Shown: piece by piece, positions 6,139-25,203 of the stretch
Position numbering within the stretch: position 1 is the first letter of the stretch
Layout: every line of letters starts with the position of its first letter
IMG/VR virus record: IMGVR_UViG_2703718817_000003
Length of the DNA stretch: 64,000 nucleotides
Reading direction: 5' to 3' (one strand)
Origin: a virus
Taxonomy: Duplodnaviria > Heunggongvirae > Uroviricota > Caudoviricetes
Notes under the pieces: generated by a model
What the model was told of the DNA's origin: nothing
The model's input: only the letters and a program-made list of their open reading frames with translations
The model's database searches: none
Program-made: the position numbers and the translations under genes

Positions 6139-6825
6139 TTACGGCTGGCCTCCCTTCACCTGCTTTAGCGTCAGATTTCCGCAAAAAACCGCGCCAGTGT
6201 CTATGTAGTGCTGGTTCCAGAAAGATTTCGGGCTGTTTACTGGCGTATGCCCGAAAATAAAGCTATCTGCACCAGTGATCATTCCACCAACACCATCAAC
6301 CGCGTCATAAAATCGCTCACGCCGCCAGGTAACATTGAGATCGCTAACAGGTTTACCAAACTGGTATTCGTTATCAGGATAGTCGGCATGGGCTATAACG
6401 ATAGTTTCATGCCCGGTGTTCAACTCAATGATATAGGGTAAACGTCTTACCAGCTCCACCAGCGCCCTGGCTAATATTTCCCGATCAGCGTCCAGCATGA
6501 AGAACCATTGGCCGCCATTCATTAGCCAGTTATTCACGTTGCCTGCGGGGCTTAACGCATCGATCATTAATCGCTCGTGGTTTCCCATAACCGACCGAAA
6601 CCAGGGCATCTGCAATAGCTCCAGGCATTCAACATTTTCGGTGCCGCGATCGATAAGGTCGCCAACCGATATCAGTAAATCCTGTGTCGGGTCAAAGTCC
6701 ACACGATGAAGTTCAGACATCAATCTGGTGTAGCAACCATGCAGATCACCAACAACCCATATGTTTCTGTAGCCTGAACCATCAATACTGCTATATAAAT
6801 TCACTTCATGCAGCGCCTGGGTCAT
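6139..6825 (-). CDS. Ser/Thr protein phosphatase (lambda PPase/PrpA-like, calcineurin-like phosphoesterase)
   Basis: [29 protein letters not shown] motifs; start set at MTQALHEV (6825) giving ATGA overlap with upstream gene. Confidence 0.85.
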
Positions 6826-7133
6826 GCGGCAACCTTCTCCCGCAGCCAGATACAAACCGGGCCATCTTCAGTGTCATGAATAGAGCCAACAAACCATCCT
6901 TCGCCCTCTGGTCGCTCTGGTTCCCAGGCGGCAATATCGGGACCATCTGCGTCCAGATTAAAATGATCTTCATCCATACTGCGAATAGTCCACTGAAGAT
7001 TATTTTCCTTCATCCAGGCGTCAAATTCCTCAGTGGATATATATTCACGACCTGCGCAAAACTTTTCATACTCCGGATGTGTCCAGCAGCCATATTCATC
7101 ACGTTCTACCGGCATTTCTTTAATGATGCTCAC
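6822..7133 (-). CDS. hypothetical phage protein
   Basis: 103-aa ORF, operon-style 4-bp overlaps on both sides. Confidence 0.45.
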
Positions 7134-7354
7134 TCTTCATCCTCCAAGTCGGCAACGGCCTCCATCACATCAGAACCGCGAATAACCTCAAAAGCACGGC
7201 AGGCCATTTCAAACACCTGTTGTTCTTGCGGATGCGGTGACTCCCAATACTTAAAACCAGGTCGATGCTCGTAACCCAACATGGAATAAAAATCGCCAGC
7301 AAGCTCAATCGCGGCATCAACAAGTTCGCGATTTGTCATCGTCTGTTCTGTCAT
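7130..7354 (-). CDS. hypothetical phage protein
   Basis: 74-aa ORF, 4-bp overlaps with neighbours. Confidence 0.4.
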   Translation of the reverse strand: MTEQTMTNRELVDAAIELAGDFYSMLGYEHRPGFKYWESPHPQEQQVFEMACRAFEVIRGSDVMEAVADLEDEE

Positions 7355-7626
7355 TTTGTTTTCTCCTGTCTGAACATCACTATCATCAGGTCGCCTTTTG
7401 TCGCTATCCTGGCTGTTGTACCTGGTTCAATGCGGCTAAGCTCAAATGCGTCATAGAACGCTTCTAATGCCTTCTGGCGTAGTTCCTGTTTGCGCCGTTT
7501 TTTCCACTGTTTCAGGAAAATGGAACCCAGCCATCGCCATGTACGGGACATGATGTAAAGCCAACCGAGAAGTGCCAGACCGGTATTTAGGAGCGTATCG
7601 ATCGTTATTGTCGTGTCGATATTCAC
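7351..7626 (-). CDS. small membrane protein
   Basis: 91 aa with one hydrophobic helix (LLNTGLALLGWLYIM) followed by basic stretch. Confidence 0.45.
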   Translation of the reverse strand: MNIDTTITIDTLLNTGLALLGWLYIMSRTWRWLGSIFLKQWKKRRKQELRQKALEAFYDAFELSRIEPGTTARIATKGDLMIVMFRQEKTK

Positions 7627-8335
7627 TGGCTGCCTCCTTTGCGAAGCTGTTCAGCAATACTTACGCATATCTCTGCGCCTCTAATCAGCCCCGGAACGTT
7701 CTTGTTTGGCCCAACTTCACCATCGACAAAATCAATCATCGCGTTACGAGCCATATCCACGCCCTGCGCACGTACTTCAGCCAGGAAAGCATCGGTGGCT
7801 GGGGTATCAACACGGATACTGTCGCGCAAGATGAAAAATGCATTGAGCATTCCAGTCTCTGGCACTTCATCCTGATGCTTCTCATACGCATCAAGAGCCT
7901 TCATCATCTCAGCTCCGAATGGTTGAGGGTGCACAGACTTCAGCTCCGCATTCTCCGCCGCCAGCACCGCGCGTTCGCTCTCCAGTTCTGTAATGCGCCG
8001 TCTTGCAGCATCCAGTTCAATCGACAATTTTCCCAACTGCTCTTTATGCTTCTTGTATTCCTGATATGCGTGCCAAGACTGACCTTTGCGCACACTATCC
8101 GTGATATCAGTAATCTGTTCTGGTGTTAGCGTGGTCAGTGGCTGTGCTGGGAAAATCAGCACTTTCCCGGCATCCCAATCAAAACCCACCTGAATTGACT
8201 GAACCTCAACTGATGGTGTTGAACCGATGCGACCAGGCGAATGAACAACGATCGTTACATCCATATCGCGACGATGGCTGTGGTTGTTGGACAAAATACG
8301 ATTCACCAACTCAGAAAATTTGGAAAATTTCATGC
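7623..8335 (-). CDS. Ea22-like phage protein (paralog)
   Basis: C-terminus EQLRKGGSQ; start set at MKFSKFSEL (8333) directly after upstream stop with AAGGGA SD; ORF-track start 8384 would overlap 54 nt. Confidence 0.6.
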
Positions 8336-21855: not shown

Positions 21856-22529
21856 AACGCAGAGCGCAAATCGTAGGGACCAAACACCCTGCCGGACTTA
21901 TGCGAGCGCAGGTCCGCATACTGCCTGACTGGAACGGTGTACCGGATGAAGACCTCCCATGGGCAGAGTATCAAATGCCTATCGGTAACGCCTTTACACC
22001 TACAGTCAGCGGCGATTTAGTCTGGGTAGAATTTCCTTATCTGGATGCTAAAGGCAGGATAGACACGCGCCGACCTTTAATCGTTGGTGCGGCGCAGGAT
22101 GCCCCAGGAGGCGTACCAAATGTGCCTCCGGAAGCCTCCGGACAAGGAAGTGGATGGTCGCCAGAAGAAGTTGATGGTGCTCCTGCCCGCCCCCAGTTTT
22201 CGGCGACTGAAGATTTTGTTATTCACCGAAACAATATCCTTGAGGTCAGAACGGCTGGCGGTGGCTATGAAATAGCAAACACCGCCGCAGGATCAAGGAT
22301 AGGGATGAACGAATCCGGCCAGATTTACATAATCGGCCCGGCGAATATAGTGCTTAATGCTGGAGGTGAGGTTAACGTCAAATCAAGCAGCAAAACCAAT
22401 GTATCCTCTGATGGAGACGTTAATGTAAAAGGCAGCAATGTAACCGTCGCCGCTGATGGTGATATAGCCCTGAAAGCTGGTGGCGCGCTAAAAGCAACAG
22501 CGAGCAATTTCTCCTTTGTGAAGGGATAG
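21852..22529 (+). CDS. baseplate central spike protein, gpV/Phage_base_V-like
   Basis: N-terminal OB-like region (GDLVWVEFPYLD...RRPLIVGA) and C-terminal beta-helix-like repeats (GGEVNVKSS..GDVNVKGSNVTVAADGDIALKAGG). Confidence 0.5.
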   Translation: MKRRAQIVGTKHPAGLMRAQVRILPDWNGVPDEDLPWAEYQMPIGNAFTPTVSGDLVWVEFPYLDAKGRIDTRRPLIVGAAQDAPGGVPNVPPEASGQGSGWSPEEVDGAPARPQFSATEDFVIHRNNILEVRTAGGGYEIANTAAGSRIGMNESGQIYIIGPANIVLNAGGEVNVKSSSKTNVSSDGDVNVKGSNVTVAADGDIALKAGGALKATASNFSFVKG

Positions 22530-22540
22530 CAAAATGCAAA

Positions 22541-22576
22541 ACTGTGTTAGATAATTGAGTTTTATTTTCTAACACA
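22541..22576. promoter_or_regulatory. palindromic operator-like site upstream of rdgC
   Basis: CTGTGTTAGATAAT-N8-ATTTTCTAACACAG inverted repeat. Confidence 0.55.
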
Positions 22577-22588
22577 GTTTTGCGAAAC

Positions 22589-23494
22589 ATGAGATTAGTC
22601 GCCTTTAAAAACATATACGTCTATCGCCTTGCCCGCGAAATTAAACTGGACTCAACCACCGTTAGTGATGCCTTAAGCCAATTCACATTCACTCCATGCG
22701 CATCACAAGAAATGGCAAAAGTCGGATGGGTGCCGGTTCTGGCTGACAACCTGATCCATGAATACCACGGTTTTCTACTTCTCCAGCAACAGCGAGAAAT
22801 TAAGCTCCTGCCCTCTCATGTCATTAAGGAGGAAGTGCAGAAAAAAGTGGAAAAGCTCGAAAATGAGCAATCTCGTAAGCTGAAGAAGTCGGAAAAAAAC
22901 ACCCTGAAGGATGAAGTTCTCCACTCTTTGTTGCCTCGCGCATTCACTCGCAAATCATTGTCGCGAATCCTTATTGATCGCGACAACTATCTGGTCTTCG
23001 TAGAAGCTTCCAGCGCCAGAAAAGCAGAAGAAATGCTGGCGCTCTTACGTAAATCACTTGGCAGCCTGCCAGTGATTCCATTCACGCCGATAGAACCGCT
23101 CGAAATGACTATGACCGAATGGTTCAAGTCAACATTTCCTCAAGGCTTTAAAGCAGGCGAAGAAGCCATATTGAAATCGCTGTTCGATGACGGCGGCGCA
23201 GTTCGTTGCAAGAAAGTAGACCTACAGTCAGAGGAAATAATGACTCATATTGAAGCCGGAAAAGTTGCAACAACAGTTGCAATCAACTGGCAGGACCGCG
23301 CGACCTTCAGGTTAAACGATGATATGAGCATCAAAGCACTGACGTTTTGCGATGATCTCTATGACCAGAACGATGACATCGACCGTGAAGATGTTGCCCA
23401 GCGATTTGATGCTGACTTCATTCTGTTCACAAGCGAATTATCCGCGATGTTTAGCTCGCTGGTGGAGGCCATTGGCGGTGAAGCAGAGCATTAA
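22589..23494 (+). CDS. rdgC: recombination-associated protein RdgC homolog
   Basis: Strong match to E. coli RdgC along whole length (VAFKNIYVYRL..., KLKKSEKNTLKDEVLHSLLPRAF, ALLRKSLGSLPVIPF, DIDREDVAQRFDADFILFTSEL, GGEAEH). Confidence 0.85.
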   Translation: MRLVAFKNIYVYRLAREIKLDSTTVSDALSQFTFTPCASQEMAKVGWVPVLADNLIHEYHGFLLLQQQREIKLLPSHVIKEEVQKKVEKLENEQSRKLKKSEKNTLKDEVLHSLLPRAFTRKSLSRILIDRDNYLVFVEASSARKAEEMLALLRKSLGSLPVIPFTPIEPLEMTMTEWFKSTFPQGFKAGEEAILKSLFDDGGAVRCKKVDLQSEEIMTHIEAGKVATTVAINWQDRATFRLNDDMSIKALTFCDDLYDQNDDIDREDVAQRFDADFILFTSELSAMFSSLVEAIGGEAEH

Positions 23495-23537
23495 TAACCG
23501 ACCGCTGGCGGTGAGTCTTTGTGATTATACAGGGAAT

Positions 23538-24158
23538 ATGGTTTCCCCCTGGCTGGAACACGGCATTGATGCAGTCATTGTCGATCCGCAACACCAGGAG
23601 TCCGGCAGCCAATTGATGGAGTCAGGTGCTGTACTCACACGTATCAGCGCAATTATTGACAGTGATGAGGTCTACAATTTCCTTCGGAAAAATTTGCACA
23701 GAGTTGTATTTTTAGCCGGTTTCCCTCCATGTACTGACCTGGCTGTATCTGGCGCACGCTGGTTCGCAGATAAAGCGAAAAAAGATCCGGTTTTCCAGTT
23801 CAAAGCAATGCAGGTTGTCTGGCAGTGTTACGACATTGCAAAGATGATTGGTTGCCCGTACATGATTGAAAACCCGGTCAGCCAAATATCGACATTCTGG
23901 CGTAAACCTGATCACATATTCCATCCTTATCACTTCACTGCATATTGCAAGGAAGACAATTACACCAAAAAAACATGCCTGTGGAGCGGACAAGGATTCA
24001 TCATGCCAACTCCGCGAATCGACGAGTCGTTAGGTGATCCAGACAACCGAATACACAAGGCACCGCCAGGACCTGAAAGAGCGAATTTTCGTAGCGCAAC
24101 ACCTTACGGTTTTGCAAGAGCTGTATTTGAAGCAAATAAGGAGGGAATCCGTGGCTGA
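23538..24158 (+). CDS. C5-cytosine methyltransferase-like protein (PPC and ENV motifs, no obvious target-recognition domain)
   Basis: AGFPPCTDLAVSG (motif IV Pro-Cys) and YMIENPVSQ (motif VI-like); AdoMet motif I atypical; alternative GTG start at 23511. Confidence 0.5.
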   Translation: MVSPWLEHGIDAVIVDPQHQESGSQLMESGAVLTRISAIIDSDEVYNFLRKNLHRVVFLAGFPPCTDLAVSGARWFADKAKKDPVFQFKAMQVVWQCYDIAKMIGCPYMIENPVSQISTFWRKPDHIFHPYHFTAYCKEDNYTKKTCLWSGQGFIMPTPRIDESLGDPDNRIHKAPPGPERANFRSATPYGFARAVFEANKEGIRG

Positions 24159-25068
24159 TATTGGTGCTAAATTTATTTCTTATAGCGACAATCATCGTCC
24201 TGCGGCGGAAGCCACTATCAACCATATGCGACGTATTCGCTCGGAGGACGAATTTGATCGCCCCGTCTTTAAGTGGGTCGGCGGCAAATTTTCTGCACTG
24301 CCCATTATCTTCGAACACCTGCCCCACGGAAAACGGTTGATAGAACCTTTCGTTGGAGGTGGCGCTGTTTTCACTAATGCCGGATTTAAAAGCAACCTGC
24401 TGAACGATATCAATAATGACCTGATTAACTTCTATCAGACATTGCAGCGTGAAGGGCATTCTCTTATCACACTGGCATATCGTTTTTTTCAGGATTACAA
24501 CTCTGCTGATGCATTTTTGAATGTTCGCAATGCATTCAACAATGGTGCTTATGATTCTCTTCACCATGCGGCGGCGTTCCTGTATCTCAATCGTCATTGT
24601 TTTAATGGCGTCACTCGCTATAACCGTAAAGGAGAGTTCAACGTCGGATATGGAAAGCAGAAATCTCCCTACTTCCCTCTCGCGGAAATGGAGGCGTTCC
24701 TGGATGACGATATTTCAAAGTATTCGGAGTTTGTGTCCGGCGATTTTGCTGGTGTAATTGAGGCTGCCGGGAATGATGATGTGATTTTCTGCGATCCCCC
24801 CTATGAACCATTGCCTGACACTACCGGATTTACAAATTACTCAGGGCATAGCTTTAGGTTTGAAGATCAACAACGGCTGGTGTCACTGCTGGTGGATGCC
24901 CACAGACGCGGAGCGAAAATTGTGATAACAAACAGTGGTGCGCCTAACATTCGCGAACTTTACGTTGGCAATGGCTTCAAGGTGTATCCTATGCCATCCC
25001 GTCGCTCTGTATCCTGTAAAGCATCAACGCGAATGATAGCTAACGACATTATAGCCACGCTTAATTAA
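24151..25068 (+). CDS. dam: DNA adenine methyltransferase (Dam family)
   Basis: FKWVGGK, EPFVGGGAVF, DPPY motifs and overall similarity to E. coli Dam; GTG start with AAGGAGGG SD. Confidence 0.85.
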   Translation: MADIGAKFISYSDNHRPAAEATINHMRRIRSEDEFDRPVFKWVGGKFSALPIIFEHLPHGKRLIEPFVGGGAVFTNAGFKSNLLNDINNDLINFYQTLQREGHSLITLAYRFFQDYNSADAFLNVRNAFNNGAYDSLHHAAAFLYLNRHCFNGVTRYNRKGEFNVGYGKQKSPYFPLAEMEAFLDDDISKYSEFVSGDFAGVIEAAGNDDVIFCDPPYEPLPDTTGFTNYSGHSFRFEDQQRLVSLLVDAHRRGAKIVITNSGAPNIRELYVGNGFKVYPMPSRRSVSCKASTRMIANDIIATLN

Positions 25069-25070
25069 GA

Positions 25071-25092
25071 AAAGCCCCATATGGGGCTTTTA
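25071..25092. terminator. bidirectional hairpin terminator between dam and parG-like gene
   Basis: AAGCCCC-ATAT-GGGGCTT hairpin with flanking A/T runs. Confidence 0.6.
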
Positions 25093-25109
25093 TAACATCA
25101 AACAAGCAC

Positions 25110-25200
25110 CGTTACGGTACACTAATAACACCATTCTGGTACTAAAAAGGAACCAAAGCAGCCTCAAAATAACACATGGAACCAAAACGGTGTTATTCCG
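25110..25200. repeat. centromere-like repeats (GGTAC/GGAACCAAA family) downstream of parA/RHH operon
   Basis: GGTACTAAAAAGGAACCAAAG and GGAACCAAAACGG; related repeats recur at 26140-26365 on the other side of the operon. Confidence 0.4.
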
Positions 25201-25203
25201 GCG

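What the first reader, a model, noticed from the sequence alone, without database searches (positions are those of the whole stretch)
23511..25068. Adjacent C5-methyltransferase-like and Dam methyltransferase genes with overlapping stop/start
The Dam gene is unambiguous. The upstream ~210-aa protein has the catalytic Pro-Cys motif and an ENV-like motif of C5-cytosine methyltransferases, but an atypical AdoMet motif I and no room for a target-recognition domain. P1 carries a fused Dam/C5 methyltransferase (Dmt); here the two halves appear as separate, translationally coupled genes in the opposite order. The short C5-like protein may depend on Dam for targeting or have a non-methyltransferase activity.
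Basis: partly seen in the sequence, partly recalled or inferred. Interest (0 to 1): 0.5.

Follow-up and report, generated by a model that had tools for sequence, protein, structure and literature searches.

The report
Compact cytosine-methylase-like gene beside Dam
A D6-like phage-plasmid of E. coli carries a very small, widespread but biochemically untested relative of DNA cytosine-5 methylases directly in front of an ordinary Dam adenine methylase gene; phage D6 is already annotated this way, and the pair most likely pre-methylates the element's own DNA.

Summary
The window is a D6-like phage-plasmid with a co-directional block rdgC – short gene – dam. The short gene's stop overlaps dam's GTG start by 8 nt (GTGGCTGA). 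Its true start is probably GTG 23478, which overlaps rdgC by 17 nt.

Dam is a canonical D12-class enzyme, 70% identical to the Dam half of P1 Dmt.

P1 Dmt is also C5-then-Dam, and its C5 half is an unrelated canonical PF00145 domain. Dependence on Dam is not supported: 77 of 80 viral loci with this family have no D12 Dam nearby.

The best reading is an autonomous compact orphan DNA C5-methyltransferase co-expressed with Dam. Phage D6's GenBank record already annotates it that way, so this copy is an ordinary member of an uncharacterised family.

The parts
22538..22581 (.). Perfect 14-bp inverted repeat (arms 22538-22551 and 22568-22581, 16-nt spacer) between the baseplate gene and rdgC. It could be a terminator or an operator at the upstream edge of the rdgC-methylase block.
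   Evidence: Sequence. RNA fold -25.2 kcal/mol, z -8.1. Function not tested.
22589..23494 (+). rdgC (recombination-associated protein), first gene of the block
   Evidence: PF04381 1.2e-100 and NCBIfam RdgC. RefSeq start in the 99% identical plasmid. Same position as hrdC in P1.
23464..23468 (+). GGAGG ribosome-binding site for the short gene, inside the 3' end of rdgC
   Evidence: Conserved with D6.
23478..24158 (+). Compact C5-cytosine-methyltransferase-like gene. It is 226 aa from GTG 23478, with alternative starts GTG 23511 (215 aa) and ATG 23538 (206 aa).
23514..23534 (+). Motif I-like SLCDYTG (family consensus S-L-F/C-D-x-T/S-G), the presumed AdoMet loop with only one Gly
   Evidence: Aligns with SLFSGIGG of canonical enzymes in hhalign.
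23721..23732 (+). Motif IV FPPC with the presumed catalytic Cys74
   Evidence: C74 is in 61/61 relatives, F71/P72/P73 in 55/61. Aligns with the PCQ of P1 Dmt and other canonical enzymes. An intein sits exactly at this Cys in P0220.
23868..23879 (+). Motif VI ENPV (ENV equivalent)
   Evidence: E120 and P122 in 61/61, N121 in 57/61.
23922..24089 (+). Residues 138-193: a miniature variable region in place of the target-recognition domain, with invariant K153, T155 and W158
   Evidence: The motif VI to motif X distance has a median of 77 aa in this family and 202 aa in 89 canonical phage C5 methylases. Conservation.
24090..24125 (+). Motif X-like RSATPYGFARAV followed by the C-terminal helix
   Evidence: R194, S195, T197, P198, G200 and F201 are nearly or fully invariant. 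Helix 199-213 in the model.
24140..24144 (+). GGAGG ribosome-binding site for dam, inside the 3' end of the short gene
24151..24158 (+). GTGGCTGA: the dam start codon overlapping the short gene's stop codon
24151..25068 (+). dam, a D12-class N6-adenine DNA methyltransferase (305 aa). FVGGG is at 24349-24363 and DPPY at 24793-24804.
   Evidence: PF02086 6e-54, TIGR00571 9e-69. About 70% identical to residues 471-753 of P1 Dmt. PADLOC orphan-methylase model 1.2e-79.
25070..25091 (+). GC-rich hairpin followed by UUUUAU, a likely intrinsic terminator ending the block
   Evidence: Fold -14.6 kcal/mol, z -3.8. The simple scanner did not list it.

Best explanation
The block rdgC – short gene – dam is one translationally coupled unit of a D6-like phage-plasmid. 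It encodes two independent orphan DNA methyltransferases.

Dam methylates adenine in GATC.

The short protein is a stand-alone, minimal member of the C5-cytosine methyltransferase superfamily. Its proposed mechanism is as follows:
- It has a Rossmann core that binds AdoMet through SLCDxTG, Asp25 and the RSxTP segment.
- Cys74 of the FPPC loop attacks C6 of a flipped-out cytosine.
- Glu120 of ENP protonates N3.
- The methyl group is then transferred to C5.
- A stretch of about 55 aa (residues 138-193, with invariant K153, T155 and W158) replaces the usual target-recognition domain of 100 aa or more, and presumably reads only a short or degenerate sequence.

Together the two enzymes would mark the element's DNA with m6A and m5C. 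This would protect it from restriction in new hosts and, by analogy with P1 dmt, serve Dam-dependent steps of the phage cycle.

Shown here: gene structure, family, fold, motif conservation, purifying selection, synteny with P1, and occurrence without Dam.

Inferred: AdoMet binding, m5C formation, DNA as the substrate, specificity, and timing of expression.
For: Fold:
- The AF2 model has pLDDT 87 and pTM 0.85.

Motifs:
- They occur in canonical order and are conserved in 61 representatives: D25, C74, E120 and P122 in 61/61, FPP in 55/61, R131 in 51/61, and R194/S195/T197/P198/G200 in at least 56/61.
- hhalign against canonical C5 methylases aligns motifs I, II, III, IV and VI colinearly.
- PF00145 is the only Pfam family hit recurrently by family members (7/61, best E 0.0039).

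Annotation and literature:
- PHROG 757 'DNA methyltransferase' matches at 4e-77.
- A family member, Pantoea phage AAS23 gp52 (35% identical, E 3e-38), gave HHpred 99.7% to C5 methylase 3ME5. Its authors read a restriction digest as cytosine-methylated DNA (PMC8004638).
- BFVD relatives are named DNA-cytosine methylase.

Context:
- DNA methylases of five different classes are the most frequent immediate neighbours, but most loci have none.
- A natural fusion of this domain to Dam occurs on three contigs, one of them with RdgC upstream.
- The gene occupies the same slot as the canonical C5 domain of P1 Dmt.

Other:
- dN/dS is 0.067.
- An intein is inserted exactly at the catalytic Cys in one relative.
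- P1 needs Dam methylation at pac (PMC12707154).
Against: - No curated model recognises the protein. Pfam PF00145 gives no hit at E<=1, NCBIfam gives none, and the PADLOC methylase models give none.
- phmmer and two profile searches of all PDB sequences return no methylase of this kind.
- Foldseek against the PDB finds nothing significant. The best hit is an RNA 2'-O-methylase at E 0.017.
- My own profile-profile comparisons are colinear but weak (E 0.011-0.35).
- Motif I has one Gly and a conserved Asp where canonical enzymes have the first Gly, so AdoMet binding is unproven.
- The recognition region is far smaller than in any canonical enzyme compared here.
- I found no direct biochemical or methylome evidence for any member. 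The AAS23 digest does not exclude host Dcm.
- The BASEL study saw no simple link between phage methylase genes and restriction resistance in Drexlerviridae (PMC8594841).
Confidence: 0.6

Rival explanations
1. The short protein uses C5-methylase chemistry on a different substrate or with a different cofactor. Candidates are single-stranded DNA or RNA as substrate, or transfer of a group other than methyl (for example carboxymethyl from carboxy-AdoMet).
For: - Motif I is atypical, with a conserved Asp in place of the first Gly.
- The best Foldseek PDB hits are RNA 2'-O-methylases, though they are not significant.
- The mini recognition region leaves little surface for reading duplex DNA.
Against: - The closest structural neighbours are overwhelmingly duplex-DNA C5 methylases.
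- The neighbours enriched around the gene are DNA methylases and replication or recombination genes, not RNA-modification genes or cofactor-synthesis genes such as cmoA.
- Nothing in the sequence points specifically to another cofactor.
Confidence: 0.13
2. The short protein depends on Dam, as a subunit that borrows Dam's DNA recognition or as a modulator of Dam.
For: - The start and stop codons overlap.
- A natural single-chain fusion of this domain with Dam occurs on three contigs.
- The gene sits in the slot of the C5 half of the P1 Dmt fusion.
- It has almost no recognition domain of its own.
Against: - Of 80 viral loci, 77 have no D12 Dam within 4 kb.
- When a methylase is adjacent, it belongs to any of five unrelated classes.
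- The Pseudomonas and Agrobacterium prophage copies have no DNA methylase gene beside them.
- In AAS23 the gene is distant from a dam of a different type.
- The family is about 60% identical across distant hosts whatever its neighbours are.
- Fusion of two orphan methylases, as in P1 Dmt, does not imply dependence.
Confidence: 0.07
3. The protein is a catalytically dead methylase-like protein that acts by binding DNA or another protein, for example as an anti-restriction factor or regulator.
For: - It escapes all curated methylase models.
- Its AdoMet motif is degenerate.
- BASEL found no link between phage methylase genes and restriction resistance.
Against: - The catalytic Cys, the ENP Glu and the ribose-binding Asp are invariant across 61 diverged relatives. 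Pseudo-enzymes normally lose such residues.
- An intein targets the Cys codon.
Confidence: 0.05

Closest known systems
Phage D6 gp64 / gp63 (MF356679: 'putative DNA-cytosine methylase' and 'site-specific DNA-adenine methylase')
   Same: These are the orthologues. The short protein is 84% identical and Dam 79% identical at protein level. The order rdgC-short-dam and the overlapping junctions are the same.
   Different: The DNA is only about 75% identical. D6 has a glutaminyl-tRNA synthetase gene just downstream of dam, which this window lacks. Neither protein has been tested biochemically, as far as I could find.
P1 Dmt (754 aa bifunctional methyltransferase)
   Same: Same position after the rdgC homologue hrdC. 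Same order, cytosine-type domain then Dam. The Dam halves are about 70% identical, and the match begins at Dmt residue 471, the start of its Dam half.
   Different: Dmt is one polypeptide. Its N-half is a canonical PF00145 domain of about 470 aa with no detectable similarity to the short protein. Here there are two genes, and the cytosine-type protein is half that size and belongs to another family.
Canonical bacterial and phage C5-cytosine methyltransferases (Pfam PF00145; M.HhaI, Dcm, prophage enzymes 3g7u and 3me5)
   Different: The protein is below every sequence-model threshold. Motif I has a single Gly. The motif VI to X distance has a median of 77 aa against 202 aa, so the usual target-recognition domain is missing.
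DNMT3A/DNMT3B catalytic domain
   Different: Only 10% sequence identity. They are eukaryotic and work as DNMT3L-assisted oligomers. The resemblance is structural and is not evidence of shared specificity.
PHROG 757 family, e.g. Pantoea phage AAS23 gp52 and the 'Dcm' genes of T1-like (Drexlerviridae), Kagunavirus, rV5-like and Krischvirus phages
   Same: Same family (PHROG E 4e-77; AAS23 gp52 35% identical, E 3e-38). Same size. Routinely annotated as DNA (cytosine) methyltransferase.
   Different: In those phages the gene is usually not next to a D12 Dam. The family as a whole lacks a characterised member or a Pfam/NCBIfam model.

Membership tests
C5-cytosine DNA methyltransferases (Pfam PF00145 DNA_methylase) | Match to the PF00145 profile above its gathering score | tested here: not met
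   No PF00145 hit for the window protein even at E<=1. Among 61 relatives, 7 give sub-threshold hits, best E 0.0039.
C5-cytosine DNA methyltransferases (superfamily level) | Class I Rossmann methyltransferase fold with C5 methylases as nearest structural neighbours | tested here: met
C5-cytosine DNA methyltransferases (superfamily level) | Motif IV Pro-Cys with the catalytic Cys after strand 4 | tested here: met
   FPPC is at 71-74, directly after strand 68-70. C74 is in 61/61 relatives. It aligns with PCQ of canonical enzymes.
C5-cytosine DNA methyltransferases (superfamily level) | Motif VI Glu-Asn-Val after strand 5 | tested here: met
   ENPV is at 120-123, after strand 117-120. E120 and P122 are in 61/61, N121 in 57/61.
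C5-cytosine DNA methyltransferases (superfamily level) | Motif I F-x-G-x-G AdoMet loop, plus the acidic residue of motif II | tested here: inconclusive
   The family consensus is S-L-F/C-D-x-T/S-G with one Gly and a conserved Asp. The motif II Asp25 is invariant. AdoMet binding was not testable.
C5-cytosine DNA methyltransferases (superfamily level) | Target-recognition domain between motifs VIII and IX | tested here: not met
   Only about 55 aa lie in this region. The motif VI to X distance has a median of 77 aa, against 202 aa (minimum 116) in 89 canonical enzymes.
C5-cytosine DNA methyltransferases (superfamily level) | AdoMet-dependent formation of 5-methylcytosine in DNA | not testable with these tools
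   No methylome or biochemical data were found for any member. There is only a restriction digest for phage AAS23 (PMC8004638).
PHROG 757 (phage 'DNA methyltransferase') | Full-length match to the PHROG profile | tested here: met
   E 4.1e-77, residues 2-212 on profile positions 19-221 of 247.
Dam / D12-class N6-adenine DNA methyltransferases | PF02086 and TIGR00571 above cut-off, with FxGxG and DPPY motifs | tested here: met
   PF02086 183.9 bits (cut-off 22) and TIGR00571 232 bits (cut-off 114.85). FVGGG is at residue 67 and DPPY at 215.
Dam / D12-class N6-adenine DNA methyltransferases | GATC specificity | not testable with these tools
   Inferred from about 70% identity to the Dam half of P1 Dmt. 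That half is annotated as methylating GATC.
P1 Dmt-type bifunctional methyltransferase | Single polypeptide with a canonical C5 domain fused to Dam | tested here: not met
   There are two ORFs with an 8-nt overlap. The N-terminal partner is not homologous to the Dmt N-half at sequence level. The Dam half and the synteny with rdgC do match.

The most novel reading that the evidence does not exclude
The roughly 205-230-aa family represented here may be the smallest autonomous DNA C5-cytosine methyltransferases. They would lack a conventional recognition domain and so write m5C at a very short or degenerate motif, a cytosine counterpart of the near-non-specific phage adenine methylases. Less likely, they use an unusual cofactor. 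The family is very large: more than 6400 clusters at 90% identity, 2558 clusters at 50% identity, and 1571 phage genomes. It is invisible to Pfam, NCBIfam and the PADLOC methylase models, so methylome and defence-evasion surveys would be missing it systematically.
Probability: 0.25. Interest if true: 0.6.

Novelty: new member of a known kind. Interest (0 to 1): 0.3.

Why it matters
This particular locus matters little. It is the orthologue of genes already annotated in phage D6, in an element found in about 2% of complete E. coli genomes.

The family behind it is more interesting. It is an abundant, strongly conserved, half-size C5-methylase-like enzyme of phages, prophages and phage-plasmids. 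It has no characterised member, no solved structure and no curated profile. RefSeq labels it 'hypothetical protein', and often from a start codon that removes its AdoMet motif.

If the family is active, it would define the minimal architecture able to methylate cytosine in DNA. It would add an unrecognised source of m5C to phage anti-restriction biology, and it might offer a compact enzyme for epigenetic tools.

The three architectures found at the same genomic slot are a neat case of non-orthologous replacement and of gene fusion and fission among orphan methylases. They are canonical C5::Dam fused in P1, compact C5::Dam fused on metagenomic contigs, and compact C5 plus Dam as overlapping genes here.

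Tried and rejected
Searches that found nothing useful:
- Sequence searches of the PDB with the single protein and with two profiles found no methylase. The only marginal hit, E 0.57, was a class I methyltransferase aligned on motifs I and II.
- Foldseek against the PDB gave nothing significant. The AlphaFold-database library was not available.
- PADLOC gave no hit for the short protein.
- A search for the P1 C1 operator consensus in the window found no match at up to 3 mismatches.
- A scan for GATC clusters that might mark a P1-like pac site found none in this window.
- Literature searches for a biochemical or methylome test of any family member found only annotations and one restriction digest.
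- The D6 genome paper and the Murphy et al. review were not held.

Searches that were inconclusive:
- Profile-profile comparison with canonical C5 methylases gave colinear motif alignments, but E was only 0.011-0.35. I tried three templates: P1 Dmt alone, a 10-sequence profile, and a profile of roughly 100 sequences (A6 seeds plus fetched homologues under 400 aa). This does not stand as an independent statistical proof.
- The homologue search seeded with the P1 Dmt N-half returned almost only P1-like sequences and added little diversity.

Readings considered and rejected:
- A chance ORF: rejected by dN/dS 0.067 and thousands of homologues.
- The short gene as a split-off half of P1 Dmt: rejected because there is no similarity and the Pfam status differs.
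- ATG 23538 as the start: rejected because it removes conserved motif I.
- The 198-aa antisense ORF 24001-24597 as a gene: rejected because it lies inside the conserved dam and short-gene coding sequence.
Full report
**What the window is.**
- The region 22500-25200 is 99% identical to about 90-kb non-mobilizable E. coli plasmids such as NZ_LR890273.1. It is 74.5% identical to phage D6.
- The surrounding genes are tail and baseplate genes, HigBA, ParA-like and ParM/StbA-type partition genes, as in D6. The window is therefore a D6-like phage-plasmid.
- The methylase module occurs in 100 of 5426 complete E. coli genomes, always on plasmids. Seventeen copies are at 95% identity or more, and 83 are of the D6 subtype.

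**Checking the observation.**
- Three co-directional genes abut: rdgC (22589-23494; PF04381 1e-100), a short ORF ending at 24158, and dam (24151-25068).
- Dam's GTG start follows a GGAGG at 24140-24144. It overlaps the upstream TGA as GTGGCTGA.
- The short ORF has three candidate starts.
  - RefSeq uses ATG 23538 (206 aa, 'hypothetical protein').
  - The D6 annotators used the equivalent of GTG 23478 (226 aa).
- The conserved N-terminal motif SLCDxTG lies upstream of ATG 23538.
- GTG 23478 has a GGAGG 9 nt upstream, and that junction is conserved with D6. Close relatives start MKQ.VNNRPL. Both the 226-aa and the 206-aa forms circulate in databases.
- I take GTG 23478 as the start. It overlaps rdgC by 17 nt, so all three genes are chained by overlaps.
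- A GC-rich hairpin followed by a U-run directly after dam (25070-25091, -14.6 kcal/mol, z -3.8) probably ends the unit.
- A perfect 14-bp inverted repeat precedes rdgC (22538-22581, z -8.1).
- dN/dS of the short gene against D6 is 0.067, with synonymous sites near saturation. It is a real gene under strong constraint.

**Dam.**
- The downstream protein is a textbook D12-class enzyme: PF02086 6e-54, TIGR00571 9e-69, FVGGG and DPPY motifs, and the PADLOC 'orphan methyltransferase' model at 1e-79.
- Residues 20-304 are about 70% identical to residues 471-753 of P1 Dmt.
- P1 dmt supplies the GATC methylation needed at pac, and it is essential in Dam- hosts (PMC12707154).

**The short protein: sequence level.**
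- It matches nothing in Pfam (PF00145 absent even at E<=1) or NCBIfam. It also matches none of PADLOC's methylase models.
- phmmer and two profile searches of all PDB sequences return no DNA methylase.
- It does match PHROG 757 'DNA methyltransferase' at 4e-77.
- The family is very large:
  - 6494 clusters at 90% identity;
  - 2558 clusters at 50% identity, almost all 200-280 aa long;
  - 1571 phage records, including T1-like Drexlerviridae, Kagunavirus, rV5-like and Krischvirus phages.
- Many of those phage copies are already annotated as cytosine methylase.
- Members from Pseudomonas, Agrobacterium, Cronobacter and Pectobacterium are still about 60% identical to the window protein.
- PF00145 is the only Pfam family hit recurrently by family members, but below threshold (7 of 61, best E 0.0039).
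- My hhalign comparisons with canonical C5 methylases align motifs I, II, III, IV and VI in the correct register. The E-values are only 0.011-0.35.
- A published HHpred run on a family member gave 99.7% probability to the C5 methylase 3ME5 (PMC8004638). That member is Pantoea phage AAS23 gp52, 35% identical to the window protein at E 3e-38.

**The short protein: structure and motifs.**
- The AlphaFold model is confident (pLDDT 87, pTM 0.85). Confidence is lower over residues 71-100, the counterpart of the mobile catalytic loop.
- The margin is modest, and Foldseek finds nothing significant in the PDB. In BFVD, Foldseek finds family members named DNA-cytosine methylase.
- Conservation in 61 representatives follows the canonical order:

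| Motif | Sequence in this family | Conservation |
|---|---|---|
| I | S-L-F/C-D-x-T/S-G | one Gly only |
| II | Asp25 | 61/61 |
| III | Asp | 43/61, shifted two residues in this protein |
| IV | F-P-P-C | C74 61/61 |
| VI | E-N-P | E120 and P122 61/61 |
| VIII-like | W-R-K-P-D | R131 51/61 |
| X-like | R-S-x-T-P-x-G-F | nearly or fully invariant |

- K153, T155 and W158 are also invariant.
- The motif VI to motif X distance has a median of 77 aa. In 89 canonical phage C5 methylases the median is 202 aa and the minimum 116 aa.
- So 'no room for a recognition domain' is essentially right. Only about 55 well-conserved residues (138-193) occupy that place.

**Relation to P1 Dmt.**
- P1 Dmt has PF00145 at its N-terminus and PF02086 at its C-terminus, and it follows the rdgC homologue hrdC. 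The order is therefore the same as in the window, not the opposite.
- The short protein shows no BLASTP similarity to the Dmt N-half. It is a non-orthologous, half-size replacement at the same position, not a detached half.
- A third state exists. A 563-aa protein fuses the compact domain to a D12 Dam. It is seen on three contigs, one of them 32.8 kb long with RdgC two genes upstream.

**Does the short protein need Dam?**
- Among 80 IMG/VR loci carrying the family, a D12 Dam lies within 4 kb only in the 3 D6-like loci.
- Immediate neighbours are enriched for DNA methylases, but of varied classes:
  - downstream: PF00145 in 4 of 66 and T1-type Dam in 1;
  - upstream: T1-type Dam in 3, N6_N4 in 3 and MT-A70 in 3 of 69.
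- A canonical C5 methylase lies within 4 kb in 10 of 80 loci. Most loci have no methylase next door.
- The Pseudomonas and Agrobacterium prophage copies sit among replication and recombination genes, with no adjacent DNA methylase gene.
- In AAS23 the gene is about 8 kb from an unrelated-type dam, on the other strand.
- This is the usual clustering of phage orphan methylases. It is not an obligate partnership.

**Interpretation.**
- The most likely reading (about 0.6) is a stand-alone, minimal DNA C5-cytosine methyltransferase that is translationally coupled to Dam. The phage-plasmid would then mark its DNA with both m5C and m6A.
- Rivals:
  - different substrate or cofactor (0.13);
  - Dam-dependent subunit (0.07);
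  - inactive binder (0.05).
- No experiment on any family member was found beyond a restriction digest that does not exclude host Dcm.

**Novelty.**
- The locus is the orthologue of D6 gp64/gp63, which GenBank already annotates as putative cytosine and adenine methylases.
- The finding is thus a new member of a known, although uncharacterised, kind.
- The family itself deserves an experiment, because it would define the smallest C5 methylase architecture and because curated profiles miss it.

Noticed in passing
window 22538-22581: A perfect 14-bp inverted repeat (AAAACTGTGTTAGA / TCTAACACAGTTTT, 16-nt spacer) lies in the 59-nt gap between the baseplate gene and rdgC. The RNA fold is -25.2 kcal/mol, z -8.1. 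It could be a terminator of the tail operon or an operator for the rdgC-methylase block.
   Followed up: partly
protein P0220 (548 aa, metagenomic relative): An intein (Hint plus LAGLIDADG homing endonuclease) is inserted exactly between FPP and the catalytic Cys of motif IV. The methylase Cys would therefore serve as the +1 extein nucleophile.
   Followed up: partly
window 23538 versus 23478; RefSeq WP_068981782.1 in L002 5039-5659: RefSeq (PGAP) starts the short gene at an internal ATG. This removes the conserved SLCDxTG motif, and RefSeq names the product 'hypothetical protein'. Both the 206-aa and the 226-aa versions are common in databases (431 and 816 contigs).
   Followed up: yes
window 25069-25203 versus L001 (D6) 6586-8247: Phage D6 carries a glutaminyl-tRNA synthetase gene immediately downstream of dam. 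This window has only a 135-nt spacer with a terminator hairpin before the ParA-like partition genes.
   Followed up: no
loci L022, L055, L057, L059, L060, L067, L069-L071, L074: In 10 of 80 viral loci a canonical PF00145 C5 methylase lies within 4 kb of the compact one. The two kinds coexist rather than substitute for each other.
   Followed up: partly
BFVD entries A0A6J5NPY6 (1126 aa) and A0A6J5SE15 (1397 aa, helicase/UvrB N-terminal): Two giant phage proteins contain a domain with the compact methylase fold (Foldseek E 1e-6 to 4e-6). This is reminiscent of methylase-helicase fusions such as P1 DarB.
   Followed up: no
protein P0174 (348 aa): A family member carries a C-terminal HNH endonuclease domain (PF13391, 6e-8). 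It could be a methylase-nuclease fusion or a homing-endonuclease capture.
   Followed up: no
proteins P0457, P0460, P0476, P0520 (267-274 aa): Some PF00145-positive phage C5 methylases from metagenomes are only about 270 aa long. They fall between canonical enzymes and the compact family and are not characterised.
   Followed up: no
window 24001-24597, minus strand: A 198-aa antisense ORF spans the short-gene/dam junction. It lies wholly inside conserved coding sequence on the plus strand and is most likely spurious.
   Followed up: no
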